From positions 35,776-99,775 of the forward strand of contig JBGATK010000001.1 in NCBI GenBank assembly GCA_044229265.1: a stretch of 64,000 bases of DNA, read 5' to 3'. The position numbers were made by a program, and so were the translations under genes. The stretch is from Minisyncoccia bacterium. GTDB taxonomy: Bacteria; Patescibacteriota; Minisyncoccia; Phycocordibacterales; UBA9973. Shown here piece after piece: positions 16,190 through 59,539 of the stretch. Below the pieces are notes generated by a model, which was not told the origin of the DNA, ran no database searches, and worked only from the letters and a program-made list of their open reading frames with translations. Every line of letters begins with the position of its first letter. Position 1 is the first letter of the stretch.

Positions 16190-17941
16190 TTACTCAGAAA
16201 CCACTCTAAATACTTCTTCTACGCTAGTATTCCCTAGTGCTGCTTGAAAAATACCATCTTCTATCATGGTCATCATTCCTTCTTTTTTTGCTTGAGCTTC
16301 AATATCGTCTTGTGAAGCACCTTTTAAAACTAATTCCTTGATAGCACCTGAAACCTTTAATACTTCATGAATACCTACACGGCTTTTATAGCCATCTTCC
16401 GATTCAGCACTTTTTACTGGCCGATAAAATGCTACTTTATCCCAACTATCATCTTTGCCAATAATATTTTCAGCTTTTAAAAAACCTAACATTCTATCTA
16501 AATCTACAATTTTAGCTAAATTTGCTAATTCGTCTTTATTCATAAAATATTTTTCTTTTGATGAAGTTAAACGTCGTACAAGACGCTGAGCAATAATAGT
16601 TTTCACAGTAGAAATAATCAGAAATGGCAATGCGCCCATATCTATCATACGAGGAACAGCACCAGCAGCTGAATTAGTGTGAATTGTAGAAAGCACTAAG
16701 TGTCCAGTAAGTGAAGCATTAATAGCAAGAGATACAGTTTCCCCATCACGAATTTCCCCTACCATTACGATATCAGGGTCCTGACGAAGAAGTGCACGTA
16801 GTCCTTGTGCAAAAGTTAAACCTATTTCTGGTTTTACTTGTGTTTGATTTACTCTTGGCATTTGATATTCCACTGGGTCTTCTACCGTAGAAATATTTAC
16901 ATCTGGCTTATTTAACATATCGAGCATAGTGTAAAGCGTAGTAGTTTTACCCGAACCGGTAGGGCCAGTAGCTAGTATCATACCTGTTTTTTGTTTCATG
17001 GATTCATAAATTTTCTCTAATCCTTCACCATGAAAACCTAATCCTTCCAACGAGAAACCATGAGAATTTTCTTTTAAAAGACGAATCACAGTTTTTTCAC
17101 CGAAAAATGTAGGTAGTGTAGAAACACGAAAAGAAACTTTTTCACCATTTTGTTCTATTTTAAAACGACCATCTTGTGGGAGTCTTTTTTCATCAAGCTT
17201 TAAATTCGACAATACTTTTATGCGTGCAGTTATGCCTGGTGCTGCACTTTTATCGAGTGTCATGGCATCATGCAAAATACCATCAATACGGTAGCGCACT
17301 ACTAATTTTTCTTCACCTGGTTCTATGTGAATATCAGAAGCATTTTGCAAAATAGCATGAAAAACTAATGAATCCACGATCTTAACTACAGGCAAATCTT
17401 CAGCCATTTCTTTTAATTCTTGCGCTGATTTTTCTCCTCCACCCTCATCGTTCTTTAATTTTAAAGAATTTGATTCTTCTTGAATAATATTTGAAAATTC
17501 TGCTTGTAAACTTTTGCGATATTGCACAAGAGCACTTTTTATAGATGCACTATCTGTGAGGCGTGGTAAAATTTTGAGCCCGGAACGCTTTTTAATAAAA
17601 TCAATAACAGGCAAATCGTCCACGTCGAGCATAGCTACTTCTAATTCTTTTTCTGTTTTTTTATAACCAATAATATTATAATTTCGAGCAATTGGCTCTG
17701 GGATAAGTGAAAGTATAGCTATATCTATTTTTTCTTTTTCCAAAGAAACAAAAGGTATACCTAGAACATGGGCTTCTATTTTGCGAAGCTCTGTTTCTTT
17801 TAATTTATTTTGAATAAGAAGAGTATCAGAAAGGGTTTGCCCTTTTTCACTCGCAATTTTTGCCATATCATTTAAATCCGATTCTGAAATTAATTTACTA
17901 TCAAGTAAAAATTTCTTGAGTTGTTTTTCATCTATCTCCAT
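16190..17941 (-). CDS. pilB: Type IV pilus assembly ATPase PilB (GspE family)
   Basis: 583 aa; GspE_N-like N-terminus, Walker A GPTGSGKTTTLYTML, Asp and His boxes. Confidence 0.9.
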   Translation of the reverse strand: MEIDEKQLKKFLLDSKLISESDLNDMAKIASEKGQTLSDTLLIQNKLKETELRKIEAHVLGIPFVSLEKEKIDIAILSLIPEPIARNYNIIGYKKTEKELEVAMLDVDDLPVIDFIKKRSGLKILPRLTDSASIKSALVQYRKSLQAEFSNIIQEESNSLKLKNDEGGGEKSAQELKEMAEDLPVVKIVDSLVFHAILQNASDIHIEPGEEKLVVRYRIDGILHDAMTLDKSAAPGITARIKVLSNLKLDEKRLPQDGRFKIEQNGEKVSFRVSTLPTFFGEKTVIRLLKENSHGFSLEGLGFHGEGLEKIYESMKQKTGMILATGPTGSGKTTTLYTMLDMLNKPDVNISTVEDPVEYQMPRVNQTQVKPEIGLTFAQGLRALLRQDPDIVMVGEIRDGETVSLAINASLTGHLVLSTIHTNSAAGAVPRMIDMGALPFLIISTVKTIIAQRLVRRLTSSKEKYFMNKDELANLAKIVDLDRMLGFLKAENIIGKDDSWDKVAFYRPVKSAESEDGYKSRVGIHEVLKVSGAIKELVLKGASQDDIEAQAKKEGMMTMIEDGIFQAALGNTSVEEVFRVVSE

Positions 17942-20347: not shown

Positions 20348-22021
20348 TTATTTTATCTTTGCTTCGAGGATTTCTAAACGCCTACGCAAATCTTCATTTT
20401 CTTTTTTTAGTTCATTAATTTGAGCTTCATGTTTTTGAGTTTCTTTAAGTAGCAATACTGACAACATTGGATATTTAACAGAATCTGGGATTAGTAAATC
20501 TCTTGTGCTACCGGCAATTACATTCTTCTCTGGAATATAGTCCACCAAAGCAGGCACAACTTTATCTACATCTTCGGCTATAAGACCAAAATACCTAAGT
20601 CCATCACTTTTTGAAGTATAAGAAACTGGTTTCAAATCATAAATTTTTGAAGTATCTATTTCTAAATCCGCGACATCTTTTTTATATCTTATAGAAGAAG
20701 TTGAGCGAAGTAATTTACTAGTACCTGTATCATAATACGCATTTGCAGCATTTGCTGTCGTTCCAATACTTCCAAATGAAGGATTGGTTAGTGTTTTCCC
20801 CGATAGAGTTTGAGTGCCTGTTGTATCTACTGGGGTAAAAGTAGTCCACCCTGTACCTGAATTAACTCTACGTAAAGCATCATTATTACCAGGGCATTTC
20901 TCTACAAGAATACCTGTAGTTTCGGCAGCCAACATACAACCTCCGGTGACGCTTGATACTCCAGTACCTCCTTTACCTACAGGTAAAATACCCGCAACCT
21001 CAGTCGTAGCTAGGTCAACTTGAGCTGTAGTTCCACCACCAGTAGCAAATATGTAATTATTAGCAGTTATAACACCAGCACCAGTTGGACCCAACGTACC
21101 TGAGGTCAGTAGTGCTACTGTATTTGTACCTGTTGTAACACTCGCAAATGATACTGACCCTCCACCTCCAGATGTTCCACAAGAAAAAGTATTTGTAGCA
21201 ATAACATAATTTAAATGATTTCCTCCAGAATCAGGACAATTTAAAAGTGCTTTTGCTTCCCAAGCAGAACCATTTGAAACAAGTAGGGTATCGTCAACAG
21301 CACTTGAAAGGCCTGTGCCACCTTTGGCAAAAGGCACGACATTGTTATAAGTAGTAGAGAGTCCGGTAGAAGTAACGTCCCCAGTTAAGTTTCCCATAGT
21401 AGGTGTTCCCCAAGTATTATCGCCTCGCAAAAAAGTAGTAGAATCTTTTGTGCCAGTAGCTGAGAGCTTTGTAGTCGCTACTATAGTAGCATCAGTAATT
21501 TTTATATTAGTTATTGCATTGTCTGCAATTTTTGAATTTCCTACTGCATTGTCTACAATCTTTCCTGTTGTAATAGTAAGTGGGTCTATAGTCCAAGTAG
21601 CTCCACTGCCAGTAACAGTAATGTCGCCTTTATCACCATCAGAAACACCTCCGGAACTAACATCCCAAGTTAAATTTCCTGCACCATCAGTTTTTAAATA
21701 TCCATTTGCAGTTTGGTTTGCAGGAAAAGTATATGTTTCTGTATTTAGAGTAAGTGTTTTGCCTGGAAAGATAGTTACATTACCTTTTAAATCTGAAGTT
21801 CCGTCTACTACTAATACTGTACCAGAGCGTAGTCCACTCCATGCTACTATTCCTCCGTCTTTTGCTTGAGTAGTGGAGCTTGTGTTTATTGGGGGTTCGG
21901 TGTTGCCTCCTGTTGGAGGAGTGCCTATTGGAGGCACCCACACTGCAAATGCTTGCAAAGCTATTGCAAAGGCTGTGAGGACGAAAACAGATTGAAGAAA
22001 AATTTTTGTTTTATAAGTCAT
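20348..22021 (-). CDS. Tail-fibre-like surface protein with a C-terminal intramolecular chaperone auto-processing (peptidase S74-like) domain
   Basis: 557 aa; signal peptide ...LQAFA|VWVPP; C-terminus RSTSSIRYKKDVADLEIDTSKIYDLKPVSYTSKSDGLRYFGLIAEDVDKVVPALV...YPMLSVLLLKETQKHEAQINELKKENEDLRRRLEILE matches the endosialidase/tail-fibre chaperone domain pattern. Confidence 0.7.
   Translation of the reverse strand: MTYKTKIFLQSVFVLTAFAIALQAFAVWVPPIGTPPTGGNTEPPINTSSTTQAKDGGIVAWSGLRSGTVLVVDGTSDLKGNVTIFPGKTLTLNTETYTFPANQTANGYLKTDGAGNLTWDVSSGGVSDGDKGDITVTGSGATWTIDPLTITTGKIVDNAVGNSKIADNAITNIKITDATIVATTKLSATGTKDSTTFLRGDNTWGTPTMGNLTGDVTSTGLSTTYNNVVPFAKGGTGLSSAVDDTLLVSNGSAWEAKALLNCPDSGGNHLNYVIATNTFSCGTSGGGGSVSFASVTTGTNTVALLTSGTLGPTGAGVITANNYIFATGGGTTAQVDLATTEVAGILPVGKGGTGVSSVTGGCMLAAETTGILVEKCPGNNDALRRVNSGTGWTTFTPVDTTGTQTLSGKTLTNPSFGSIGTTANAANAYYDTGTSKLLRSTSSIRYKKDVADLEIDTSKIYDLKPVSYTSKSDGLRYFGLIAEDVDKVVPALVDYIPEKNVIAGSTRDLLIPDSVKYPMLSVLLLKETQKHEAQINELKKENEDLRRRLEILEAKIK
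21583..21907. repeat. ~325-bp near-identical tract, copy 2 (within the 5' part of the 557-aa gene)
   Basis: See copy 1. Confidence 0.85.
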
Positions 22022-23913: not shown

Positions 23914-24017
23914 ACAAATATATTATATAAAATAAACGCTATAAAATTTAACTTATATGTGGATAACTAAAAAGTATTTGCCTTTTAGTTTTAAATTTGA
24001 TATTATATGCATATTAA

Positions 24018-35338: not shown

Positions 35339-35363
35339 CTGTCAAACATACCTCTGTGGAAAA

Positions 35364-48935: not shown

Positions 48936-49229
48936 CATTAAAGTCCTTGAAACAAATTAAATTTCTGTCCCATAGTTATACCCATATAAAATAAGGATTT
49001 TGTTCAAAACTGTGGATAACTATGTGGGTATTGTTTATAAATGTCCTTTATCAAAATGTCTTTTAAATAGACAATTTCCTAAAATATCCTTTAAAATCAA
49101 GACAAAATGATAAAAGACTATAAATTTTCACACTTTTCATTAATTCTTTCACGTGAAACATATTAAATAGTTTCATCTGAAACATTATAAAGATATGCTG
49201 TTTAATTAAAGAATAAGGCTTACTATTTT

Positions 49230-49944: not shown

Positions 49945-50730
49945 TCAAACTAATTGAGTATTAATTTTAATTTCAAATTTAATAATTCCTAACCAGCGTA
50001 GGAATCTAAGAATTTGAAAGAATGGATCAATTTCACCTTTCTTTACAGCAAAATTTGCACGTTCTGGATGTTTATGATGATTATTTTGAAACCACTCACC
50101 GCCAAGTGCAAAATCAGCATGGAGAACATTTTGTGAATCATCCTCTAATTCAAAATTTCTATAACTAAGCAAGCTTTTTTTGTGTCCATACCAATTTACT
50201 AGAGAGCCTTGTATAGCACCAGAAAAAATATTTAGTAAAATCAGGGGCCAAAGCCACACAGTAGGGCAGAACATGTAGTATAAATAAATGTACAAAAATA
50301 TAAAACCATACATGGAAATACTACTATTTGCAATATTTTCAAAATCTGGCCAACTAGGAAATTTTTTGTCTTTCCAAAGCTTTATTAAGCTGCTTTTACC
50401 TTTATTTATTTCTTCTAAAATTTTTAAAGCTCTGTGCATCATACGCACAACGTCAAAGAAAAAACTTTTCCAAAATCTAGGCGAATGTGGATCGCCTTTT
50501 TCATCAGAATGTAAATGATGTGTTAAATGCATTATTGCATAAGATTTCGGGCACATATAAGCTGAGCCCATGGTAAGATAAGTCTTAATCCAAAATAACT
50601 TTTCCCAAAATAAATTTGTAAAAGATATGGATTTGTGAGTAGCGTATCGATGAATAAAAACACTATGATAAAAAAGCGTTATTCCATACCAAAATACACC
50701 AAAAATCAAGAAAAATAAAAAAGGAGTCAT
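49945..50730 (-). CDS. Membrane fatty-acid desaturase, acyl-CoA delta-9 (stearoyl-CoA desaturase)-like
   Basis: 261 aa; histidine boxes HRYATHKS, HLTHHLHSDEKGDPHSP, NWYGHKK and QNNHHKHPERA match the HxxxxH/HxxHH/QxxHH arrangement of delta-9 desaturases. Confidence 0.75.
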   Translation of the reverse strand: MTPFLFFLIFGVFWYGITLFYHSVFIHRYATHKSISFTNLFWEKLFWIKTYLTMGSAYMCPKSYAIMHLTHHLHSDEKGDPHSPRFWKSFFFDVVRMMHRALKILEEINKGKSSLIKLWKDKKFPSWPDFENIANSSISMYGFIFLYIYLYYMFCPTVWLWPLILLNIFSGAIQGSLVNWYGHKKSLLSYRNFELEDDSQNVLHADFALGGEWFQNNHHKHPERANFAVKKGEIDPFFQILRFLRWLGIIKFEIKINTQLV

Positions 50731-50840
50731 AATATTTTAATTTAAATTTTCAAGAACTAAAACCATCTCTGAAATTATAACACAATGCTAAATCTAAAAA
50801 ATTATTTGCAATAAATATAAAAATATGGAAAACTATCGAT

Positions 50841-51044
50841 ATGGAACACGAAACTTTTTGGGACCTCTTTAATAGTGCTGCGCATTGGCAGTTTGAGATC
50901 TTTTTAATCATTATTTTTGATGGTATTATTGGTTTACTAATTTGGCCAAAAATTAAAAAATGGTTTACTCATCATGAAGAAGACGATGCAAAAATAGCTT
51001 CACTAGAAAAAAGGCTAGATATGTTAGAAAGAAAAGACAAATAA
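50841..51044 (+). CDS. Small membrane protein
   Basis: 67 aa; one transmembrane segment, then a charged coiled tail. Confidence 0.35.
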   Translation: MEHETFWDLFNSAAHWQFEIFLIIIFDGIIGLLIWPKIKKWFTHHEEDDAKIASLEKRLDMLERKDK

Positions 51045-51048
51045 TCTG

Positions 51049-51097
51049 GGCAAAATAAAAATCCTCTTACATTGTAGAGGATTTTTATTTTGCCCAG
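51049..51097. terminator. 21-bp perfect inverted repeat with a 5-nt loop between convergent genes (gggcaaaataaaaatcctcta cattg tagaggatttttattttgccc)
   Basis: Read directly; overlaps the last codons of the M23 peptidase gene. Confidence 0.6.
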
Positions 51098-52236
51098 CTA
51101 TTATCAAAACCCGGATTCTTTGCACCTCGAACTTCAAAGTGTAAATGCGGACCAGTCGAGCGACCAGTATTACCTACATAACCAATTACTTGACCTTGAA
51201 TAACTTCATCTCCAACACCTACAGCCAATTTGGATTGATGAGCGTAGAAAGTTTGAGTGCCATTTGGATGAGCAATAATTATAAGATTTCCATAAGCACC
51301 ATTCCATCCATATTTTGCAAAGATTACCTTACCCGAAGCTGCTGCATAAATAGGTGTGCCGATTTTACCGCAAGCTAAGTCCACAGCGTATGTATCATGC
51401 TTACCTTGAGTTTGGATACCACATTTAAGCGGTCTAATATAATAACCACCGGAAAACTTATTATTATCACTGGATTGATTTGTATTTGAAGGTTTCTTCG
51501 GAGCTATAGTTTCTACATGAATTTCAGCACCGGGGACGATTATTTCATCACCAATAGCGAGTTTAGCGTCTTCGTCCAAGTTATTAAATGCAAATATATC
51601 ATCTGGATCAACTTTGTAAAGTTTAGCAATACTTTTAATGGTTTGCCCTTTAACGACAATGTGTTTTACTCCAGAAATTGGCAAAATAATCAGGGCATCA
51701 CCTTCTTTTAATTTTTCACCAGCCTTAAGGCCATTTGCCCAAAGTATCGTATTATTTGTTACTCCGAATAGTTTAGCTATAGTGGGCACAGTATCACCCT
51801 TACGAACTACATATATACTTATATCTTCAGAAGTATAATCACCATCTTTGCCAGTAAGGGCTCCGAGAGGGCTAACTGTCGGTAAAAGGGCATTTTCTGA
51901 TAAAATGTTAATTTCTTTAGATTCATCAATCTTAGAGTCTTTGGAGTTTTTATCTTCTACAATAGAAGAGCTAGACACATTGGCTTGCAAAAGGTTCAGG
52001 TTTTGAGAATTTTGGTCTGAAACAGGCTCGGTTTCTTCAATTTCTTTTTCATCACTGCCAATGCCAAACAAATCAGCGAAGAATCCGGCTTGGGCTCGCG
52101 GTGGAAAAGCAAAAATCCCTATTGCGAGGAATAGAGTAAATATCTGAATAAATAAGGATATTTTAGAGATTTTTTTTATAAAACAATTTTGTATCGCAAG
52201 AAATCTATCTGGCTTCAGGCATAAATATGCGAACAA
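51085..52236 (-). CDS. LysM-domain M23-family peptidoglycan endopeptidase
   Basis: 383 aa; N-terminal transmembrane segment; two LysM-like segments (DTVPTIAKLFGV...; QTIKSIAKLYKV...); M23 core ...HDTYAVDLA...GNLIIIAHPNGTQTFYAHQSKL...GNTGRSTGPHLHFEV. Confidence 0.85.
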   Translation of the reverse strand: MFAYLCLKPDRFLAIQNCFIKKISKISLFIQIFTLFLAIGIFAFPPRAQAGFFADLFGIGSDEKEIEETEPVSDQNSQNLNLLQANVSSSSIVEDKNSKDSKIDESKEINILSENALLPTVSPLGALTGKDGDYTSEDISIYVVRKGDTVPTIAKLFGVTNNTILWANGLKAGEKLKEGDALIILPISGVKHIVVKGQTIKSIAKLYKVDPDDIFAFNNLDEDAKLAIGDEIIVPGAEIHVETIAPKKPSNTNQSSDNNKFSGGYYIRPLKCGIQTQGKHDTYAVDLACGKIGTPIYAAASGKVIFAKYGWNGAYGNLIIIAHPNGTQTFYAHQSKLAVGVGDEVIQGQVIGYVGNTGRSTGPHLHFEVRGAKNPGFDNSWAK

Positions 52237-52423
52237 GCTTATACAGAACGACCATATGAATATGTGCTGTAAAAAATAAAGTTCTTACGAAATTACTGTC
52301 CTTCTAGCGTATCAGCCATGTAAACCCTGCTATCTATCTGTGTAAATTCATACTATCATAAAAACCATCCTAGCTCAATACTATGCAATAATTGCTGTGG
52401 ATAAGCAAAATGGGGTATAATTA

Positions 52424-54115
52424 ATGTATCTTATGAATCTAGATAAACACAACCCATCAAGAACCACTAAAATAAAAAAAATTGAGGAGGCTGAGGGCTT
52501 TGGACATATTGATAGTTTCGCAGATCTTAAAAACTCTTTAAATTTAGAAAAAAATGAACAAGGAGAAAAACCTACCGAAAACACAACAAAAGAAATTCTA
52601 GAGCGAGAAAAGGATGAGGCTCAAATTATCGAATGGCTAAAAAATGAAAAGATCGCGCAGATAGTAATTCATGGAGGCAAAAGAGAAAAAGGGGAAAATG
52701 GGGAAGATATTTGGGATTTAACTCCTGATTTAGATGCGCAAAGTGCTTCTATCTTTTTAAGTGAATACAATAAAAAGAAAGGTAAAGATCTTTACACAGA
52801 AAATGCTGTTTCTTCTATAGTACCAAAAGGCGGAAATGAGAAAGATTTAGATATAAATAAAGAAAAAGATGGTCTGCAAATTTGGCTAGATACTGGAAAT
52901 CGCTGGATGGAAGTAGAAAAGGACGGTGAAAAAAAGAAAATTTATTTTGATCATCATGGTGAAGGCAAAAAAAAATGGACTTCATCCACAGAAATGGTTT
53001 ACAACATGATGAAAAACGCAAATATACTAAAGGAAGAAAAGTGGATGAAAAATTATGTTCACAATTTAACCAGTTTTGATAACCTGGCTTATGCTTTCAG
53101 CAAAAAAGAACCTTGGACTACGGAAAAATTTCAACACGAATGGCCAAAAACACTAAACCATTTGGCTCGCGAAATGGAACCACTCGATGTTATAGAAATT
53201 TTCAAAAGAGGTATTGTTAGAAACTTTAACACTGAATTTACAGAAAAAGATTTAAATGGAGATATAAGCAAAATAGTATTAAAAAATGGAAGAACTCTAA
53301 AAGAACAAATTGAAAAAGAATCCAGTTTGGATCCAACAGTAAGTGAAGTTGCAAAAACTGAAGAAGCTATCCAAAATTCTGCTGTATATGCCATAAATGA
53401 AAAATTAGATATTACAGACACAAGAGTAGGTAATTTAATCTACAACAATATCCCAACAATAAATGGAAAAAGGAATATAATTCCTCATCATTTAGCATTC
53501 CTAGGAGCTAGAGCAAATAATTTTGATACTTATCTAATACTAAATCATCCTAAAGGTAAAGATAGAAATAGAACATTTTTTATAAATTCTAATTATCCAG
53601 GATTTGAAAAAGTATTAAAAAGATTAAAGAGACATAAAAGAATTAAACTTACCGACGTGCGTGGGGTAATGATTCACGGTGAGACAAACTTAACAGAAAG
53701 AGATTTTTTAGGAGAAATTGATCCAAAAATAATTGAAAATGCAAATTTTGCTAAAAATGGTGAACTCCGAAAAAATATCGAAAATGAAATATTAAAAAAA
53801 GAAAAAGCTAGAAATGAAAAAATTAATGAATCGGCGGAGAAAACAGAACCTGTGGTAGAAAAAGTAAAAGAAACAAAACCTGAAGCATTAGAAACTGCAC
53901 CTGTAGTAGAAGTAGAAAACAAAACAATAACTGAAGCAAAAGAAGAAAGTAAAATAGAAACAAAAACAGATATAGAAAAAGTACGCGAAGAAAAATTAAA
54001 AAAAATAGAGGAAATAAAAATTCGCGAAACAGAATTACAAACAAAAATTAAAGAGGTAGAAGCTAATCTGCAAAAAATTCTAGAAAAAATTGAGAAAATG
54101 GAGAAAAAAAATTAA
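52424..54115 (+). CDS. Hypothetical protein with a DHH-phosphoesterase-like N-terminal region and a K/E-rich coiled-coil tail
   Basis: 563 aa; candidate DHH motifs DLTPDLDAQSAS, IWLDTGNR and YFDHHGE spaced as DHH motifs I-III; C-terminus strongly K/E-rich. Weak call. Confidence 0.35.
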   Translation: MYLMNLDKHNPSRTTKIKKIEEAEGFGHIDSFADLKNSLNLEKNEQGEKPTENTTKEILEREKDEAQIIEWLKNEKIAQIVIHGGKREKGENGEDIWDLTPDLDAQSASIFLSEYNKKKGKDLYTENAVSSIVPKGGNEKDLDINKEKDGLQIWLDTGNRWMEVEKDGEKKKIYFDHHGEGKKKWTSSTEMVYNMMKNANILKEEKWMKNYVHNLTSFDNLAYAFSKKEPWTTEKFQHEWPKTLNHLAREMEPLDVIEIFKRGIVRNFNTEFTEKDLNGDISKIVLKNGRTLKEQIEKESSLDPTVSEVAKTEEAIQNSAVYAINEKLDITDTRVGNLIYNNIPTINGKRNIIPHHLAFLGARANNFDTYLILNHPKGKDRNRTFFINSNYPGFEKVLKRLKRHKRIKLTDVRGVMIHGETNLTERDFLGEIDPKIIENANFAKNGELRKNIENEILKKEKARNEKINESAEKTEPVVEKVKETKPEALETAPVVEVENKTITEAKEESKIETKTDIEKVREEKLKKIEEIKIRETELQTKIKEVEANLQKILEKIEKMEKKN

Positions 54116-56196
54116 TGTCAGAGAAAATAAAAAAAGAAAATATAGAGGCAAATAAAGAATGGACCACAGAAGACGAGGAGACTCTGAATAATTTGCTCAT
54201 GCTTATAGAAAAAACAAAAGCTCGTATCGAAGAAATCGATAAGAAGTTAGAAACTTTAGAGACACAAGAAGAACAATCTATACCAGAAATTATAGAACAA
54301 GAAATAACTCAAGTTGAGGAAAAAATAGAAATAGTAAATGAAAAGATAATTGAAGAAAAAATAAATGAAAGCTTAGATGAAGAAAAAGATCCTGTAATAA
54401 AAACGAAAACAAAAAATAAAATCTTCAAAATCCCAAAATTTCTGAGAAGTAAACTTATGAAGTATATCGTCATTCCACTTGGTCTCGCTACTAGCGTAGC
54501 TAGTGTTTACCATACCCCTCAAGAATATTATGAGATGTTTAAAAATTACAAAGAAAGACATATAGATAAAAATGAAACTGATGACCCAAATATAGTGGGT
54601 ATTGATGAATTTTATGCTGATAAAGTAGACACAGAAAAAAGCACTATGGACTTTTTGGGTGAACAAAAAATTGATTACAAATTTGGATACTATCGATCTT
54701 CGGTATTTGATTTATCTGACAGAACTCCTCCTAAATTTAAAATAATAAATGGTAGAGAAAATTATTCAAAAATTGATTCTGCTGCAGGAATTACCACAAA
54801 TTTCTTTAAACCTTTTCAAAAATTTGGTGAATTTACTCCTGTATTGAAAGGTCACCAAGAAAAGAATACTGATGAAGCAAAAGGTGACATACCTGTAATT
54901 GGATATAATAAAAATAGCCAAACAATAAAGGCTGGACATTATAAAGAATTTAACGACGACTGGCTTGTATCAGAAACTTACGAAATACCTTTAAATTTTA
55001 AATTAAATGCTGACAGTACTATCAACTTAGCTTATCACGATCAAGCCATGAGGATGGTTCCCTTAACTACAAATGAACAAGGAAAACAAATACCTTTTCC
55101 GATAGGAATAACTTATGACAAGAAAATTAAAAATATCAAACCTGAAGATTGTACACGTTTTGGCACGCTAGAAGGAGGTAAGGTATTGATGTCATGCGGT
55201 GAAAAACAAGTGCAGGTTAATGGTAATTTTTCTGACATGTATCGTGTATATCAAAGATTACAAAAAGAAAATCCTGCAACCCCAATTCAAGCATATTTAC
55301 TAGACAATGGGTCCTATAATTTACCAATATGGGACAATGATAATATCATCACTAAAGAAGAAATAAATAGCCATTTACTTAGAAATAGAGATGGCGGTAC
55401 CGCCTTAGTCCTTATTAACGATGGCAAAATCTCTCCTTTCGAATATAAAAATAAATATAAAGAACAAGAACATTACACTATAAACTTCACGAAGGATTCT
55501 GTCACGGGTAAACCGGTAATAAATGAAAAGTCTGTTATTGTGTTACATCACACAGGGTATTACCCGAACTCAAGTACAATTATTAAACAATTTGAAAGTG
55601 ATACCACTATGGGAAATGCTCATGTTCTTATCTTGAAAGATGGCACTAGACATATATTCAATAATGATGATTATGTATTAGCTCATGCTGGTAAAAGCAA
55701 ATTTAATGGGAGAGATAAGGTAAATTTCTTTTCTATTGGAATTGAAATGGAAGGCGATTCTAGAGATAAAAATGCTTTTACAATAGCTCAAATAGAAAGC
55801 ATGCTTGAATATATTCGCCCGAGAGTAGAAAAATACAACATAAAATTTGATAATATTACTGACCACAAGCGAATTCGTGACAATTGGCTAAAAGCAAATC
55901 CGTCGGGTGTGGACGAAAAGGGTAATAAGGTTTTTGAAAAAGAGGATATGGATGATAAAGTTTGGCTACAATTACAAAAACTCATAAAGGAAAAGGTCTA
56001 TACAAAAACAGAAAATAAAGACTTAGGTATGAATGAACAGAAATTACTTGGAATGCTGGCTTTCCAAGATGAATACAGAAGAACTGCAGACTCCAAGCTA
56101 TCGCTATTAAAATCTAGTAAAATATTGAAAGATTGTGGCGTATCACAAAAATATATAAAGCAAGTTTTAAAAAATATAGAAAGTAAATTAGTTTAA
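54115..56196 (+). CDS. Membrane-anchored protein with an N-acetylmuramoyl-L-alanine amidase (amidase_2/PGRP-like) domain
   Basis: 693 aa; N-terminal coiled coil, transmembrane segment (YIVIPLGLATSVASVY); IVLHHTGYYPNS...GNAHVLILKDGTRH...LAHAGKSKFNGRDKVNFFSIGIEMEGD matches amidase_2; its start overlaps the previous stop (TAATG). Confidence 0.65.
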   Translation: MSEKIKKENIEANKEWTTEDEETLNNLLMLIEKTKARIEEIDKKLETLETQEEQSIPEIIEQEITQVEEKIEIVNEKIIEEKINESLDEEKDPVIKTKTKNKIFKIPKFLRSKLMKYIVIPLGLATSVASVYHTPQEYYEMFKNYKERHIDKNETDDPNIVGIDEFYADKVDTEKSTMDFLGEQKIDYKFGYYRSSVFDLSDRTPPKFKIINGRENYSKIDSAAGITTNFFKPFQKFGEFTPVLKGHQEKNTDEAKGDIPVIGYNKNSQTIKAGHYKEFNDDWLVSETYEIPLNFKLNADSTINLAYHDQAMRMVPLTTNEQGKQIPFPIGITYDKKIKNIKPEDCTRFGTLEGGKVLMSCGEKQVQVNGNFSDMYRVYQRLQKENPATPIQAYLLDNGSYNLPIWDNDNIITKEEINSHLLRNRDGGTALVLINDGKISPFEYKNKYKEQEHYTINFTKDSVTGKPVINEKSVIVLHHTGYYPNSSTIIKQFESDTTMGNAHVLILKDGTRHIFNNDDYVLAHAGKSKFNGRDKVNFFSIGIEMEGDSRDKNAFTIAQIESMLEYIRPRVEKYNIKFDNITDHKRIRDNWLKANPSGVDEKGNKVFEKEDMDDKVWLQLQKLIKEKVYTKTENKDLGMNEQKLLGMLAFQDEYRRTADSKLSLLKSSKILKDCGVSQKYIKQVLKNIESKLV

Positions 56197-56236
56197 TTGA
56201 TTTAGAAGCTACAAAAAGCTATTATTAATAAACAAT

Positions 56237-59191
56237 ATGTCAAAAGATTCTATGCCTACAAAAGAAGAGCTCAAAAAAGAAAAAGCTGAAGCTTTAGAGA
56301 TTTTAAAGAATGCAACCGATGCCGCTAATGCTTTAACTGCAAAAAAAGAAAGTGCGAATAAATCTAAAGCAGAGACAAGCAACTCAGAGCTAGAAGATTT
56401 AAAGAAAATGGTATTAGAACAACAAGCTAGTCTTTCAGGCATGAAAGGTGAGCTCAGCGCACTAGGGGAAGAAAGGCAAAAACTCGAACAAGAAGTAATA
56501 CCGGTAGCAGAAATAGAAGAAACAAAACCTGAAATAACAGAAATAAAAGAAGAAATTACAACTCCAGAAGAAACTCCAGAAAATACAGAGGTAAAACAAG
56601 AGGAAATAAAAGCAATACCTGAACCAGAAAAAATTCCAGAAAATAAGTCAAAAACTAAAGCTGAAAAAAGAGCTGAAAACAGAAAAAAGAATGGCATAGA
56701 AGAAAAACCTAAAAAAGATAAGCAGAAAATAGATGAAACTCGCGAAAAAGTTTTAGCGAGCATGGAGCAAAAAGAAGAAGAAAAAGAAGAAATAAAAAAT
56801 TTAGATTTGGAAGACAAAAAAGATGCTGATAAGGATACTTTAGAACAAAAGGTAGAATATTTTAATCTAACTGGTAAAGATATAAATAGAATAGCTCAAA
56901 AAATAAAAGATAAAGAATATTTAGAAGCAGACGACCGTGCTTTGTATGAACAGAATCCACAACTATTCGAATCAGCAGTAAAAACAAAATGGCGCAGTGC
57001 TACAAGCTGGCTTGCTGGTGGATACCTTTGGTTGCAACAGAAATTTCTAACGACTCCAAAAACAGAAAAAATAGTAATTACTGATGAAGAAATTGCGGAA
57101 AATCATCCGGAAACTGTAGTAGATGAGGATAAAGAAACTAAAAAAGCAGAGTATGCTAAAAGGCTTCATGAAACTCTTAGTATTACAGACATGGGGGCGG
57201 CTTATGGTATTGAAAGAGCAAAAATGGCAACTGATGCTCCAGAAATACAAGAAGAAAATAAAAAACCAAAGAAAGAATCTAGCAAAGAAAGAGAGGCTCG
57301 CTTAACTCAAGAATTTATAGAGAAAGTTCAAAACCAAATCGATGCAAAAATGACAGGCGAGTGGAAAGGCGCGAGCGAAAATGAGCGAGCAGAAAAAGCT
57401 CGTGCTCTGTATGTTTCAGAAAAACAAATTTTTGATAAAGAAAAAATTGAACGCGCAGGTATATTTACAAAAAGCTTGCACGCCACAGAAAATTGGTGGA
57501 AGAATTTAGAAAATAAAAAAGGTGGTGCGTTTTGGAAAACTGCTATTAGCTCTTCGATGGTGGGCACAGGAATTGTTCTTGGTGGAATAGCTACTGGTAG
57601 CCTAGAAGCAAGCTTTGGAAAAATAGCTTGGCGTTTAGGCTCACGCATAGGCCTCGCTACTGGACTAAACTCGATGTTAGCTTCAAATAGAATGAAGACT
57701 ATAATTTCTGGTTTAAAGCCAAAAGACCAAGCAGATATCAAGAAAATGAAATATGTATTAGCCGGGACAGGAATTGCAGTTTCTGGAATTATGGGTGGTT
57801 GGGTAGTAGCAGGTATTGCTGCTGGTGGTTATGGAGTAAGGCAAATACTAAATAAAATAGACCAATACGGTGTAAAAAAAATAGCTGAACAAAAAATGGA
57901 AACAGAGAAAATTCTTAAATCAGCAGATTTTAAAGATGGTTATGATAGAAATAAAATGATAAAAAACATTTCTGTATTTAATGATGCTTACAATAAATTA
58001 GAAAAAACGATCAGACTTGAAAATAGATACAGTGCTGCAACAAAATATATTCTTTCTACTGGTATTGGTTTAGCCACACTTACAGCGATGACTCCATCAG
58101 TAGCTCATGCACAACATGACACTACTAGCGAAGTGCATAAAGACATGATTCAAGACAAAAATGGAAGCTGGATCGAGAAGCCAAAATTATCTGATGCACA
58201 CGGAACACAACCTACAGACCAAAACACAACAGCTCCGATAACTAATCCAGAAACAAAAACTCCAGAAATAGAATTTACAGAAGTAAAAGCTGGTGATGGA
58301 GTAACTCAAACCTTAAAACGACTTGTCGATGAAGACAAAGCTCCAAAATGGGTGCTCGATGAACTTGGTAAAAATCCAAAAGCTGATGATTATGCAAAAT
58401 TCGCAGAAAAATTCGGCATGCTTCACGCCAAAGATTTTGAAGATAGTATTCGTGTATCGAAGGGCGATAGTTTTGGTTTCGATGAAAAAGAAAATTTCAT
58501 CTGGAAACATGGTGACCAAAATTACACAGTAATAGAGATAGATAAAAATGGTGATGCCGAGGAAGGTGATTGGATGGATAAAATGCAAGATGAGAAGTTT
58601 ATTCACTCTCAAAGTAATCATATAAATAGTGTTGAAAATTCTAATCAAGATCTAAATGCAGAGAATCCAGAAACTGGAGATAAGTCTGTAGATACAGGTG
58701 GGGAAGGTAATCCAAGTGAAGAAAAAATTGATCCAAATAAAATAGTTGAACCAGAGCCTCTCGACAATAAAAATGCTCCAATTGAAAATACTCCAGAGAA
58801 TACTACAGGGCCAACTGTACCACCTGAAACAAATATAGAGCCTACAAATATGAATCCTTATAGCCTACCGCAAGAACAATTAGATTATGTAAATGATATT
58901 TATAAAAATTATTTAGAAAGAATGTTTCCAAATAATGAATCATTAAAATATTGGTCAGGTATTCAAAACAATAGCGCTCTTGATTTAATTCAAGTCAAAG
59001 CAGATGTTGTTGCTACAGAGAGTAGGGGATTATACCGTTTAGCTCAGACTATTTTCCACCAAACAGGATTAGAACCAAAGCATCCTACCCTAGCAAATCC
59101 ACTTGAAGAAAAAGAAACTATCAAAAATTACATTATTCGTGGTATGCAATATGCAGCTTCAAAAAATAACTTAAACCAAATAACATTATAA
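56237..59191 (+). CDS. Giant K/E-rich protein with central Gly-rich transmembrane segments
   Basis: 984 aa ORF; long charged low-complexity N-terminal half; transmembrane helices (GIVLGGIATGSL; GIAVSGIMGGWVVAGIAAGG); no family recognised. Confidence 0.55.
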   Translation: MSKDSMPTKEELKKEKAEALEILKNATDAANALTAKKESANKSKAETSNSELEDLKKMVLEQQASLSGMKGELSALGEERQKLEQEVIPVAEIEETKPEITEIKEEITTPEETPENTEVKQEEIKAIPEPEKIPENKSKTKAEKRAENRKKNGIEEKPKKDKQKIDETREKVLASMEQKEEEKEEIKNLDLEDKKDADKDTLEQKVEYFNLTGKDINRIAQKIKDKEYLEADDRALYEQNPQLFESAVKTKWRSATSWLAGGYLWLQQKFLTTPKTEKIVITDEEIAENHPETVVDEDKETKKAEYAKRLHETLSITDMGAAYGIERAKMATDAPEIQEENKKPKKESSKEREARLTQEFIEKVQNQIDAKMTGEWKGASENERAEKARALYVSEKQIFDKEKIERAGIFTKSLHATENWWKNLENKKGGAFWKTAISSSMVGTGIVLGGIATGSLEASFGKIAWRLGSRIGLATGLNSMLASNRMKTIISGLKPKDQADIKKMKYVLAGTGIAVSGIMGGWVVAGIAAGGYGVRQILNKIDQYGVKKIAEQKMETEKILKSADFKDGYDRNKMIKNISVFNDAYNKLEKTIRLENRYSAATKYILSTGIGLATLTAMTPSVAHAQHDTTSEVHKDMIQDKNGSWIEKPKLSDAHGTQPTDQNTTAPITNPETKTPEIEFTEVKAGDGVTQTLKRLVDEDKAPKWVLDELGKNPKADDYAKFAEKFGMLHAKDFEDSIRVSKGDSFGFDEKENFIWKHGDQNYTVIEIDKNGDAEEGDWMDKMQDEKFIHSQSNHINSVENSNQDLNAENPETGDKSVDTGGEGNPSEEKIDPNKIVEPEPLDNKNAPIENTPENTTGPTVPPETNIEPTNMNPYSLPQEQLDYVNDIYKNYLERMFPNNESLKYWSGIQNNSALDLIQVKADVVATESRGLYRLAQTIFHQTGLEPKHPTLANPLEEKETIKNYIIRGMQYAASKNNLNQITL

Positions 59192-59227: not shown

Positions 59228-59539
59228 ATGCTCACAAATAAAAATGAAGTTCGTCAAAATATCATCGACCTGTTTGAGATAGACAAAATGCCAGAAGATA
59301 AACAAGAAGAGATGATAGCTAAAATAGGTGGAATTATTTTCCAATCAGTAATTATGCGAATATTGCCACTAATGCCCGAGGAAGATTTAGCAGAATACAA
59401 TAAAATGATGGAAGAAAATGCTAACCCTGAAAAAGTTTTTGATTTTCTTTTTGAAAAAGTTCCAAATTTCTTTGGTATTATAGCCGAAGAATCCGAGAAT
59501 TTCCGCAAAGAAGCTGGTGAAGTTTTAAGTAAAATATAA
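59228..59539 (+). CDS. Small hypothetical protein, translationally coupled to uvrD (TAAATG)
   Basis: 103 aa ORF. Confidence 0.45.
   Translation: MLTNKNEVRQNIIDLFEIDKMPEDKQEEMIAKIGGIIFQSVIMRILPLMPEEDLAEYNKMMEENANPEKVFDFLFEKVPNFFGIIAEESENFRKEAGEVLSKI

What the first reader, a model, noticed from the sequence alone, without database searches (positions are those of the whole stretch)
52424..59191. Translationally coupled operon of three large low-complexity proteins including a membrane-anchored peptidoglycan amidase
A 563-aa protein (possible DHH-phosphoesterase-like N-terminus with a K/E coiled-coil tail) overlaps by TAATG a 693-aa protein (coiled coil, transmembrane segment, amidase_2 domain). 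This is followed by a 984-aa K/E-rich protein with Gly-rich transmembrane helices. A divergent LysM/M23 endopeptidase gene lies just upstream. Together they look like a cell-wall remodelling or cell-cell interface module built from unusually long charged proteins. None matches a well-known complex.
Basis: partly seen in the sequence, partly recalled or inferred. Interest (0 to 1): 0.5.

Follow-up and report, generated by a model that had tools for sequence, protein, structure and literature searches.

The report
Cell-wall hydrolase island with RNA leader
An uncultured Parcubacteria (Nomurabacteria-like) genome carries three real genes (a divergent DHH-type phosphoesterase, a membrane-anchored wall amidase and a fast-evolving giant membrane protein) in a variable island next to a conserved wall endopeptidase gene, and that endopeptidase gene has a previously undescribed, widely conserved structured RNA leader and an apparent AUA start codon.

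Summary
ORFs of 563, 693 and 984 aa lie at the stated coordinates. The first two overlap by TAATG, and a divergent LysM/M23 gene lies upstream.

- **B693** is an N-in bitopic protein: a cytoplasmic coiled coil, one TM segment, an unannotated beta-domain, then an AmpD-type zinc amidase_2. The beta-domain has a weak NAGPA/DUF2233-like fold.
- **C984** belongs to an unannotated, fast-evolving family of about 1000-aa membrane proteins.

The order M23 | (A) | B | C | DUF5663 | uvrD | rsmA recurs in at least 11 genomes. However, A/B/C sit in a variable island: in other genomes M23 and uvrD are only 115 nt apart. Whether the three proteins form a complex was not tested.

The main by-product concerns the M23 gene. 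It is preceded by a roughly 120-nt structured leader (window 52173-52302, minus strand). This leader was found at 120 or more metagenome sites, almost always directly upstream of an M23 gene. It shows covariation support and has no Rfam match. A near-invariant DnaA-box-like site and an apparent AUA start codon accompany it.

Verdict: a new variant of known peptidoglycan-remodelling gene clusters, of moderate interest.

The parts
51085..52179 (-). LysM x2 + peptidase M23 endopeptidase gene (about 364 aa from the apparent AUA start; signal peptide MKKISKISLF...)
   Evidence: Pfam M23 E=5.5e-31 and LysM E=1.6e-19. The HxH motif and the other metal/catalytic His residues are conserved in 10 orthologues.
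52173..52302 (-). Core of a conserved structured 5' leader of the M23 mRNA. It has a long-range helix P1, hairpin P2 with an invariant GGUCGU loop, and hairpin P3. It ends at the invariant UUUUAUAAA that holds the AUA start.
   Evidence: Covariance model R1 gives a single hit in the window (47.9 bits, E=8e-8) and 84 hits in 93 sources. There is no Rfam 15 family.
52350..52378 (-). Promoter-like elements of the M23 gene (TTGAGC-17 nt-TAGTAT in the window; TTGACT-17 nt-TAnCCT in relatives)
   Evidence: Read from the sequence. The corresponding columns are conserved in the 72-sequence alignment A10. That this is the promoter is an inference.
52396..52404 (-). DnaA-box-like nonamer TTATCCACA between the divergent promoters
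   Evidence: Exact match. GTT(A/T)TCCACA is nearly invariant at this position in 72 aligned loci. Which protein binds it was not tested.
52424..54115 (+). A563: cytoplasmic DHH-DHHA1 phosphoesterase. The folded core spans residues ~60-460 and includes a helical region of roughly 100 aa (~233-325) between the two domains. Residues 466-519 are predicted disordered, and residues 515-562 form a long helix.
54115..56196 (+). B693: N-in bitopic membrane protein. It has cytoplasmic helices (residues 18-104), a TM segment (113-132), a beta-rich domain (186-470), an amidase_2 domain (473-611) and a helical C-terminal domain (614-692).
56237..59191 (+). C984: large membrane protein of an unannotated family. 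It has a charged N-terminal ~430 aa, Gly-rich TM segments (435-623), an extracytoplasmic region with low-complexity linkers, and a conserved ~120-aa C-terminal domain (860-984).
   Evidence: No Pfam, NCBIfam, PHROG or PADLOC hit. The exhaustive search found 66 cluster representatives with two conserved modules, and these share no common Pfam domain. Large positional counterparts with mid-protein TM segments were seen in 9 related loci; the remaining loci end before this position or were not examined.
59228..59539 (+). DUF5663 small protein, a frequent companion of the C-family gene upstream of uvrD
   Evidence: Pfam DUF5663 E=1.4e-5. Synteny is shown.

Best explanation
This is a chromosomal peptidoglycan-remodelling locus of a Parcubacteria (Candidatus Nomurabacteria-like) bacterium. 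Its conserved anchor is a secreted LysM-M23 endopeptidase gene. That gene's mRNA carries a structured leader and appears to start at AUA. It is transcribed divergently from uvrD/pcrA-rsmA.

In this lineage a variable island has grown between the two, and it encodes three proteins:
- **A563**, a cytoplasmic DHH-DHHA1 phosphoesterase with an intact metal/catalytic centre, an altered substrate motif and a coiled-coil tail.
- **B693**, a membrane-tethered wall hydrolase. Its ectodomain combines an unannotated beta-domain (possibly a NAGPA/DUF2233-like phosphodiester-glycosidase fold) with an AmpD-type zinc N-acetylmuramoyl-L-alanine amidase. Its N-terminus is a cytoplasmic coiled coil.
- **C984**, a rapidly diverging polytopic membrane protein with a long charged cytoplasmic arm and an exposed C-terminal region.

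What is shown: the enzyme identities, the conserved catalytic residues, gene order and conservation, and the leader's conservation and covariation. The membrane topology rests only on hydropathy and charge distribution, so it is a sequence-level prediction rather than a demonstrated fact.

What is inferred: B693 and the M23 enzyme cut the cell's own wall (the stem-peptide amide bond and the peptide cross-links) during growth or daughter-cell separation. The cytoplasmic coiled coils of A, B and C let cytoplasmic factors position or gate the hydrolase. A563 hydrolyses a small phosphoester substrate (nanoRNA, pAp, pApA or c-di-AMP).
For: **Enzyme assignments.** Searches support A563. Searches support B693. 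Searches support the M23 enzyme, whose metal ligands are kept, so it is more likely an active enzyme than an activator.

**Topology.** There is a K/R-rich stretch before the B693 TM segment, and hydrophobic segments were found by hydropathy. Positional counterparts of C984 carry cytoplasmic-type domains in the N-terminal arm: FtsK_gamma at E=9e-16 and a double zinc ribbon at E=1.7e-11.

**Operon-like layout.** A and B overlap by TAATG, B and C are 40 nt apart, and there is no intervening terminator-like site.

**Synteny.** The order M23 | [A] | ... B ... large TM protein | DUF5663 | uvrD | rsmA recurs in the window, L007, L001, L003, L005, L009 and L012-L016. An A homologue sits directly beside the divergent M23 gene in the window, L007, L003, L008, L009 and L013, and in L048, L077, L087 and L088.

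**Wall theme.** GH25 and PG_binding_1 genes lie in the island of L003.

**Chromosomal rather than prophage or defence.** There are no PHROG hits except for the amidase domain and no PADLOC hits. The leader motif is absent from viral contigs.

**M23 gene regulation.** The regulatory region is strongly conserved.
Against:
- The island is variable. A is absent from L001, L012 and L016 and was not found near B in L005.
- The gap between M23 and uvrD ranges from 115 nt to 4.8 kb in 28 metagenome loci. So A, B and C need not act together.
- A563 could simply be this organism's housekeeping NrnA-type nuclease.
- A and C evolve far faster than B and the housekeeping neighbours. That fits surface or host-interaction proteins as well as it fits divisome parts.
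- The central domain + amidase cassette of B693 also occurs at the C-terminus of giant phage proteins. So its ancestry may be viral.
Confidence: 0.55

Rival explanations
1. The genes are neighbours without a joint function. A563 is the cell's housekeeping nanoRNase/pAp phosphatase (NrnA-like). B693 is an ordinary autolysin. C984 is an unrelated surface protein. They merely accumulate in a recombination-tolerant gap between M23 and uvrD.
For: - Island content varies between genomes, and M23 and uvrD are directly adjacent in 10 of 28 loci.
- A is absent from several genomes that keep B and C.
- The closest structural matches of A563 are stand-alone NrnA/DhhP/pAp-phosphatase enzymes.
Against: - A and B overlap by TAATG, and all genes are co-directional with short gaps.
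- A563 departs from housekeeping NrnA enzymes: a helical region of roughly 100 aa between the domains, GGGH replaced by RGVM, a coiled-coil tail and variable extra C-terminal domains.
- A563 is found beside the M23 leader in at least 10 genomes.
- All three proteins carry long charged helical cytoplasmic segments. A short WT(T/E)EDE helix recurs in A-, B- and C-family members, though this evidence is weak.
Confidence: 0.27
2. The locus is episymbiont weaponry. The amidase, the M23 enzyme and the fast-evolving C984 act on the wall or surface of a host bacterium, for attachment and for scavenging wall material, rather than on the cell's own wall.
For: - C (18-22% identity) and A (23%) diverge much faster than UvrD (58-69%) between the same genomes, as expected for host-interface proteins.
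- The organism belongs to the Parcubacteria/Nomurabacteria group (record names). That members of this group have small genomes and are thought to be symbionts is established knowledge and was not tested here.
- The window also encodes a type IV pilus-type ATPase and a dockerin/Por_Secre_tail giant protein.
- Relatives of B693's ectodomain serve phages as wall-piercing modules.
Against: - B693 is anchored in the producer's own membrane by an N-terminal TM segment and has no secretion or cleavage signal.
- The M23 gene is a near-universal, tightly regulated gene next to uvrD, with a DnaA-box-like site. That pattern suggests a housekeeping, cell-cycle-linked role.
- No host is known, and nothing here addresses host contact.
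Confidence: 0.13
3. The locus is a prophage remnant or lysis cassette: an endolysin-like amidase together with a tape-measure-like or holin-like membrane protein.
For: - The amidase domain hits PHROG endolysin families.
- The central domain + amidase cassette occurs in giant proteins on IMG/VR contigs.
- P0029 carries a crAss cargo-protein domain at E=9.4e-6, just below the Pfam cut-off (26.2 against 27 bits).
- C984's length and central Gly-rich helices superficially recall tape-measure proteins.
Against: - The same chromosomal position between M23 and uvrD-rsmA recurs in at least 11 genomes.
- No integrase, capsid, terminase or other phage gene is nearby in the window.
- A563 and C984 have no PHROG hit.
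- Identity to the viral proteins is only 27-38%.
Confidence: 0.04

Closest known systems
Stand-alone DHH-DHHA1 phosphodiesterases (NrnA/Pde2, DhhP, pAp phosphatase, TM1595, the GdpP catalytic domain)
   Different: - The Pfam DHH score is below the gathering cut-off.
- A helical region of roughly 100 aa lies between the two domains.
- The DHHA1 GGGH motif is replaced by (D/N)(V/I)RGVM.
- There are about 55 N-terminal and 50 internal residues predicted disordered, and a C-terminal coiled coil.
- The genomic context is a wall-hydrolase island.
- The substrate is unknown.
Amidase_2 zinc amidases (AmpD, AmiD, AmpDh2/3; endolysins XlyA and LysCS; Atl-AmiA)
   Different: - It is not an AmpD orthologue (NCBIfam 53.9 bits against a cut-off of 143).
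- It is extracytoplasmic and tethered by an N-terminal TM segment, with a ~110-aa cytoplasmic coiled coil.
- It is preceded by a 285-aa unannotated domain.
- A ~17-residue insertion lies between the second His and the K-x-D motif.
NAGPA / DUF2233 phosphodiester glycosidases (uncovering enzyme; PDB 3ohg, 6pkg)
   Different: The motif is one residue shorter and has N in place of G. There is no Pfam or PDB sequence-level match, even with a family profile. The similarity is a lead, not a membership.
LytM-factor/amidase pairs of the divisome (FtsEX-EnvC-AmiA/B, NlpD-AmiC, ActS, DipM)
   Same: A LysM-M23 protein is encoded next to a wall amidase. Coiled coils plausibly couple cytoplasm and wall.
   Different: - The M23 protein keeps its metal-binding residues, unlike the degenerate activators.
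- The amidase is amidase_2, not amidase_3.
- There are no ftsEX genes in the locus.
- The coiled coil is on the cytoplasmic side of the amidase itself.
Giant phage virion proteins with a C-terminal LysM + amidase_2 lytic module (IMG/VR contigs; crAss cargo-like P0029)
   Same: These share the two-domain cassette (central domain + amidase_2, including LDNGSYN) at 27-38% identity.
   Different: The viral proteins exceed 1200 aa, lack the N-terminal coiled coil and TM segment, and carry LysM. The window's gene sits in a conserved chromosomal context.
Cis-regulatory RNAs upstream of wall-hydrolase genes (ydaO/c-di-AMP riboswitch; the lysM-type RNA motifs of Rfam)
   Same: This is a long, conserved, structured 5' leader in front of a LysM/M23 hydrolase gene.
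   Different: There is no match to any of the 4227 Rfam 15 families, even at E<=1-5. The sequence and architecture are different. The ligand or partner is unknown. It ends in an apparent AUA start codon.

Membership tests
DHH/DHHA1 phosphoesterase superfamily (A563) | DHH-domain motifs I (DxD), II (D), III (DHH) and IV (D) | tested here: met
   D102/D104, D156, D176-H177-H178 and D219 are invariant in 10 family members.
DHH/DHHA1 phosphoesterase superfamily (A563) | Pfam PF01368 score at or above the gathering cut-off | tested here: not met
   The score is 20 bits (E=8.4e-4) against a cut-off of 28.1. P0034 scores 21.8 bits.
DHH/DHHA1 phosphoesterase superfamily (A563) | Two-domain DHH + DHHA1 fold | tested here: met
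DHH/DHHA1 phosphoesterase superfamily (A563) | GGGH substrate-binding motif of DHHA1 | tested here: not met
   The equivalent position reads D-V-R-G-V-M, with V415 invariant and R413, G414 and M416 nearly invariant. The motif definition is from established knowledge of the family.
DHH/DHHA1 phosphoesterase superfamily (A563) | Mn2+/Mg2+-dependent phosphoesterase activity and substrate | not testable with these tools
   This needs biochemistry.
Amidase_2 (N-acetylmuramoyl-L-alanine amidase; B693) | Pfam PF01510 above the cut-off, and the amidase_2 fold | tested here: met
Amidase_2 (N-acetylmuramoyl-L-alanine amidase; B693) | Zinc ligands and the catalytic Glu | tested here: met
   E544 aligns to AmpD E116 and H584 to AmpD H154. 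H478/H479, K609 and D611 are nearly invariant in 29 sequences. Assigning H479 and D611 as the other two ligands is an inference from motif position.
AmpD (cytoplasmic anhydro-muramyl-peptide amidase) orthologue | NCBIfam equivalog cut-off; cytoplasmic location | tested here: not met
   The score is 53.9 bits against a cut-off of 143. The domain lies after an N-in TM segment, so it is extracytoplasmic (inference).
NAGPA/DUF2233 phosphodiester glycosidase (central domain of B693) | Fold similarity | tested here: inconclusive
NAGPA/DUF2233 phosphodiester glycosidase (central domain of B693) | Invariant DGGGS catalytic loop (PMC13474241) | tested here: not met
   The family has an invariant L396-D397-N398-G399 followed by a nearly invariant S400. 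This is similar to DGGGS but not the same.
NAGPA/DUF2233 phosphodiester glycosidase (central domain of B693) | Sequence-profile match | tested here: not met
   There is no Pfam hit for 13 central domains at E<=10. There is no PDB sequence hit with the profile.
Catalytically active LytM-type M23 endopeptidase (upstream gene) | Metal-binding H...D and HxH motifs | tested here: met
   HLH (HTH in one) and the preceding His are conserved in 10 orthologues. The first motif is H-x5-D in most and HxxxD in L012. Pfam E=5.5e-31.
Degenerate LytM amidase activators (EnvC/NlpD/ActS type) | Loss of metal ligands; partner is an amidase_3 enzyme | tested here: not met
   The ligands are retained. The neighbouring amidase is amidase_2. 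NCBIfam scores are far below the equivalog cut-offs.
Known RNA families (ydaO/c-di-AMP riboswitch, lysM motifs, any Rfam 15 family) for the M23 leader | Covariance-model match | tested here: not met
   The window scan at gathering threshold found only 4 tRNAs. The permissive scan of 50600-52600 found nothing relevant. Eight canonical loci gave 0 hits at E<=1.
Phage lysis cassette / prophage | Phage structural or integration genes nearby; phage families for the partner genes | tested here: not met
   PHROG hits are limited to the amidase and M23 domains. The chromosomal synteny is conserved.
Anti-phage defence systems | PADLOC model match | tested here: not met
   There are no hits for A563, B693, C984 or DUF5663.
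oriC (replication origin) at the divergent intergenic region | Cluster of DnaA boxes | tested here: not met
   There is one box at this site. There are four in the 64-kb window, each isolated in a different intergenic region. The cumulative GC-skew minimum at about 52 kb follows gene orientation.

The most novel reading that the evidence does not exclude
The conserved M23 leader is a new riboswitch-like element that senses a nucleotide signal such as c-di-AMP, pApA or another small phosphoester. The level of that signal is set by the divergently encoded DHH-DHHA1 enzyme A563. A563 in turn docks through its coiled coil onto the cytoplasmic arms of the membrane amidase B693 and of C984. Together these would form a self-contained circuit that couples a cytoplasmic nucleotide signal, and possibly DnaA and the cell cycle through the adjacent DnaA-box-like site, to the synthesis and activity of wall hydrolases in Parcubacteria. 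These organisms lack most of the known divisome regulators.
Probability: 0.08. Interest if true: 0.85.

Novelty: new variant of a known kind. Interest (0 to 1): 0.52.

Why it matters
How Candidate Phyla Radiation bacteria build, cut and regulate their cell wall is largely unknown. Their genomes lack many classical regulators, and most of their large proteins are unannotated.

This locus offers concrete, testable parts:
- a membrane-tethered amidase with a new accessory domain that is shared with giant phage lysins;
- a divergent DHH-DHHA1 enzyme in a wall-hydrolase context, which recalls the c-di-AMP/wall link of Gram-positive bacteria;
- a fast-evolving family of about 1000-aa membrane proteins.

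Probably the most useful part is a roughly 120-nt structured RNA leader. It was found at more than a hundred metagenome sites, almost always in front of the LysM-M23 gene, and it is absent from Rfam. It is coupled to an apparent AUA start codon and a DnaA-box-like site. If the leader binds a ligand or a protein, it would be a new regulatory RNA class for wall hydrolases in a major uncultured lineage.

Tried and rejected
- **Sequence searches of A563 and the C984 C-terminal region against PDB.** Nothing useful was found.
- **Family annotation of C984.** There is no Pfam, NCBIfam, PHROG or PADLOC hit. Its 64 distant relatives share no Pfam domain.
- **Prophage or defence island.** Rejected (plus synteny).
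- **oriC at the divergent region.** The cumulative GC-skew minimum at ~52 kb and the DnaA box suggested it. It was rejected because there is a single box and the skew tracks gene orientation.
- **A shared docking helix (WT(T/E)EDE...IEK) between the B693 N-terminus and other island proteins.** The motif recurs in 7 places, but the pairwise BLAST E-value is only 0.05. It is kept as a weak lead only.
- **A YkuD-like L,D-transpeptidase motif seen by eye in the L009 384-aa island protein.** Pfam did not confirm it.
- **RNAalifold on raw MAFFT alignments.** It found only helix P1. P2 and P3 needed a trimmed alignment and manual definition.
- **Global identity for M23.** The values are invalid because I gave a mis-framed coordinate. 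The tblastn values are used instead.

Full report
**1. Observation**

The ORF scan shows three co-directional ORFs exactly as described: 52424-54115 (563 aa, 'A563'), 54115-56196 (693 aa, 'B693') and 56237-59191 (984 aa, 'C984'). It also shows a divergent 383-aa ORF (51085-52236, minus strand).
- The A/B junction reads ...AAAAATTAATGTCA..., so the last base of the TAA stop is the first base of the ATG.
- B and C are 40 nt apart. No terminator-like site on the plus strand separates them.
- K+E content is 28, 21 and 24%.
- The proteins are called genes in a public assembly on a 155-kb contig.
- Record names of homologues point to Candidatus Nomurabacteria / Patescibacteria.

The window is a low-GC (31-41%) stretch with housekeeping genes such as PNPase, RNase Y, a CCA-adding enzyme, tRNAs, UvrD and RsmA.

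**2. A563 is a divergent but complete DHH-DHHA1 phosphoesterase**

- Pfam DHH is only sub-threshold (20 bits, cut-off 28.1).
- In an alignment of ten family members, the four DHH motifs are invariant: D102-x-D104, D156, D176-H177-H178 and D219.
- The AlphaFold2 model has a confident core (residues ~60-460), disordered segments at 1-54 and 466-519, and a terminal helix at 515-562.
- Of the top 30 Foldseek hits against the PDB, 26 are DHH-DHHA1 enzymes and four carry only replication-protein labels. They include DhhP, pAp phosphatase, the GdpP catalytic domain, Rv2837c, TM1595, RecJ and PPX1.
- It differs from known members. It has a helical region of roughly 100 aa between the domains. The DHHA1 GGGH motif is replaced by (D/N)(V/I)RGVM. 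It carries a coiled-coil tail, and some relatives have further C-terminal domains.
- It has no signal peptide or TM segment, so it is cytoplasmic.

**3. B693 is a membrane-tethered wall amidase with an extra domain**

- Pfam Amidase_2 matches residues 473-587 (E=5e-15).
- A direct alignment with Citrobacter AmpD puts E544 on the catalytic E116 and H584 on the zinc ligand H154.
- H478-H479, K609 and D611 are nearly invariant in 29 homologues. The active site therefore appears intact.
- It is not an AmpD orthologue.
- The N-terminus forms long helices (18-104), followed by a K/R-rich stretch and one hydrophobic segment (113-132). This gives an N-in topology with the enzyme outside (inference from the positive-inside rule).
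- Between the membrane and the amidase lies a 285-aa beta-rich domain (186-470) that has no Pfam or PDB sequence match, even with a family profile.
- The family has an invariant LDNGS loop. It resembles, but does not equal, the catalytic DGGGS loop of NAGPA described in PMC13474241. I treat this as a lead only.
- The same central-domain + amidase cassette (including LDNGSYN) occurs at 27-38% identity at the C-terminus of giant LysM-bearing proteins (more than 1200-1460 aa) on IMG/VR viral contigs. It also occurs in P0029, which carries a crAss cargo-protein domain.

**4. C984 belongs to an unannotated, fast-evolving family**

- No library recognises it.
- The word-indexed search found three close homologues.
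- An exhaustive HMMER search with residues 390-984 found 66 cluster representatives. These share two conserved modules: the Gly-rich TM block (about 390-640) and a C-terminal ~120-aa domain. The C-terminal domain also occurs in short proteins.
- The relatives share no Pfam domain.
- Nine related loci examined have a large protein (805-1364 aa) with mid-protein hydrophobic segments in the same position, downstream of B and upstream of DUF5663/uvrD.
- Two of these positional counterparts carry typical cytoplasmic domains in the N-terminal arm: FtsK_gamma at E=9e-16 and a double zinc ribbon. This supports an N-in, C-out topology.

**5. Synteny and evolution**

- The closest relative (L007) has the identical order: desaturase | M23(-) | A | B | C | DUF5663 | uvrD | rsmA.
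- More distant genomes keep M23(-) ... B ... large TM protein ... DUF5663-uvrD-rsmA, but with different extra genes. These include charged coiled-coil proteins of 400-600 aa, GH25 and PG_binding_1.
- When the A homologue is present, it is always the first gene next to the divergent M23 gene. It is absent from L001, L012 and L016.
- In 28 metagenome loci that show both the M23 leader and uvrD, the gap between them ranges from 115 nt (10 loci are essentially adjacent) to 4.8 kb. In the window it is 7.3 kb.
- So A, B and C occupy a variable island between two conserved genes.
- Identities of the window proteins to L007/L003/L016/L001 are: UvrD 85/58/69/68, B 67/55/56/53, A 57/23/-/-, and C 53/18/22/21. 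A and C diverge much faster than B and the housekeeping neighbours.

**6. The M23 gene and its leader (found while checking the upstream gene)**

*The enzyme.* The M23 enzyme keeps its metal-binding motifs. It is therefore more likely an active endopeptidase than an EnvC/NlpD-type activator.

*Conservation of the intergenic region.*
- The region between M23 and A563 is far better conserved than the flanking proteins. It contains a 55-nt block identical between the window and L007.
- The same blocks recur upstream of M23 in all the related loci.
- In about 70 of the 80 loci returned, the motif lies directly upstream of an M23 gene on the same strand.
- It is absent from viral contigs.
- No Rfam 15 family matches it.

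*Structure.* I defined three helices on a MAFFT alignment of 35 sequences:
- P1, a long-range helix (AUCGUGAG-A with U-CUCGCGAU);
- P2, a hairpin (GCAG...CUGU) with an invariant GGUCGU loop;
- P3, a hairpin (UCUACCCUU...AAGGGUAGA) whose loop varies in length.

*Covariation on the MAFFT alignment.*
- 86.7% of cells pair, against 36-51% when the partners are slid.
- The covariation score is 0.18, against 0.06-0.09.
- Nine pairs change on both sides.
- No shuffle reaches the observed values (0/500).

*Covariation on the model-based alignment.*
- A covariance model finds one hit in the window (52173-52302, minus strand; 47.9 bits, E=8e-8) and 84 hits in 93 sources.
- On that alignment of 76 distinct sequences, 91% of cells pair. 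There are 64 cells with a change on both sides, against 19 +/- 6.5 in shuffles.
- This second alignment is fitted to the model, which favours the structure.

*Sequence elements upstream and at the 3' end.*
- Upstream of the leader are a -35/-10-like pair and a nearly invariant GTT(A/T)TCCACA, which is the DnaA-box consensus (window 52396-52404).
- The window holds four such nonamers, each alone in an intergenic region. This is therefore not an origin of replication.
- The leader ends in an invariant UUUUAUAAA.
- The reading frame that starts at this AUA gives an ORF of at least 300 codons in 54 of 54 loci with enough sequence. It begins with a typical signal peptide.
- In 49 of 75 distinct leaders, no ATG, GTG or TTG lies between the upstream in-frame stop and the AUA. 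The first canonical codon downstream falls inside the hydrophobic core of the signal peptide.
- An AUA start is therefore the most economical reading. It is inferred, not shown.

**7. How it most likely works**

Shown:
- two wall hydrolases with intact active sites (M23 and the amidase);
- a cytoplasmic DHH-DHHA1 enzyme with an intact metal centre;
- co-directional, partly overlapping genes;
- a conserved but variable neighbourhood;
- a conserved, structured leader on the M23 mRNA.

Inferred:
- the locus serves remodelling or splitting of the cell's own wall;
- the cytoplasmic coiled coils of A, B and C allow assembly or gating across the membrane;
- A563 acts on a small nucleotide substrate.

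I put this at 0.55. The rivals are:
- independent neighbours (0.27);
- host-directed episymbiont tools (0.13);
- a prophage remnant (0.04).

The most novel reading still open is a circuit in which the leader senses a nucleotide controlled by A563. It is speculative (about 0.08).

**8. Novelty and verdict**

Each enzyme belongs to a known superfamily. The architectures are new, as is the combination: DHH-DHHA1 with a coiled coil; a coiled coil, a TM segment, a new domain and amidase_2; and the C984 family. No paper in the searchable library describes them or DUF5663.

The overall finding is a new variant of a known kind, namely peptidoglycan-hydrolase gene clusters. The M23 leader is, as far as Rfam 15 and the literature search show, an undescribed RNA motif. 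It is the part most worth follow-up.

Interest: 0.52.

Noticed in passing
window 52173-52302 (-); also L001, L007-L009, L012, L016 and L019-L098: A roughly 120-nt conserved structured RNA motif lies directly upstream of LysM-M23 genes. It was found at 120 or more metagenome sites. It has three helices with covariation support and no Rfam 15 match.
   Followed up: yes
window 52177-52179 (-): The M23 gene appears to start at an invariant AUA codon inside UUUUAUAAA. The frame is kept in 54/54 loci, and 49/75 leaders have no canonical start codon upstream. Gene callers therefore mis-place the start: different assemblies and callers give 328 or 383 aa for the window organism's gene and 336-368 aa for orthologues.
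   Followed up: partly
window 52396-52404 (-); also 23958-23966, 35355-35363 and 49011-49019 (all minus strand): The DnaA-box consensus TT(A/T)TCCACA is nearly invariant just upstream of the M23 promoter-like elements in 72 aligned loci. All four copies in the window are isolated and intergenic (4 observed; 1.5 +/- 1.2 expected by chance).
   Followed up: partly
window 52416-52433 (+): A perfect TATAAT lies 2 nt before the first ATG of A563 and 11 nt before the second. In L007 the spacing is 6 nt. The A563 mRNA may therefore be leaderless, and the true start may be the ATG at 52433.
   Followed up: no
B693 residues 15-45 (window ~54157-54249); L005 10107-11582 (C-terminus); P0039, P0057, P0063: A short helix motif, WT(T/E)E(D/E)E...LL..IEK, recurs in the cytoplasmic parts of A-, B- and C-family proteins and of another island protein. 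The pairwise E-value is only 0.05.
   Followed up: partly
L005 11658-14576; L014 3096-7190: Positional counterparts of C984 carry an FtsK_gamma winged-helix domain (E=9e-16) or a double zinc ribbon (E=1.7e-11) in the N-terminal arm. This hints at DNA or nucleic-acid contact on the cytoplasmic side.
   Followed up: partly
L139-L146 (IMG/VR viral contigs): Giant viral proteins (more than 1200-1460 aa, cut by the locus ends) end in LysM + the B693-type central domain + amidase_2. The new domain is therefore shared between Parcubacteria chromosomes and phages.
   Followed up: partly
window 51048-51095: A perfect 20-bp hairpin (GGGCAAAATAAAAATCCTCT...) lies just downstream of the M23 stop codon. 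It is probably a bidirectional terminator. It also caused spurious microRNA hits in the permissive Rfam scan.
   Followed up: no
window 611-4003 (-), 16190-17941 (-), 20348-22021 (-): The window also encodes a 1130-aa protein with dockerin and Por_Secre_tail domains, a T2SSE/PilB-type ATPase (E=1e-121), and a 557-aa protein with a Peptidase_S74 (chaperone of endosialidase) domain. These suggest surface and pilus functions elsewhere in the window.
   Followed up: no
L043, L062, L087 (leader region, alignment A10 columns ~150-183): Three leaders carry a ~38-nt insertion (…TACCC-AGCAGTAGAGAAATCTCACTTCTGGGC…) just after the -10-like element. Other leaders have an optional CGCC...GGCG hairpin between P1 and P2, or a longer P3 loop.
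   Followed up: no
L060 and L053/L033 (leader 3' half): In these loci the leader is interrupted after P3 by an unrelated ~70-nt segment (…GATTCGACTAGAGAGGATGTG…). The 3' part then resumes, which suggests a small insertion element inside the leader.
   Followed up: no
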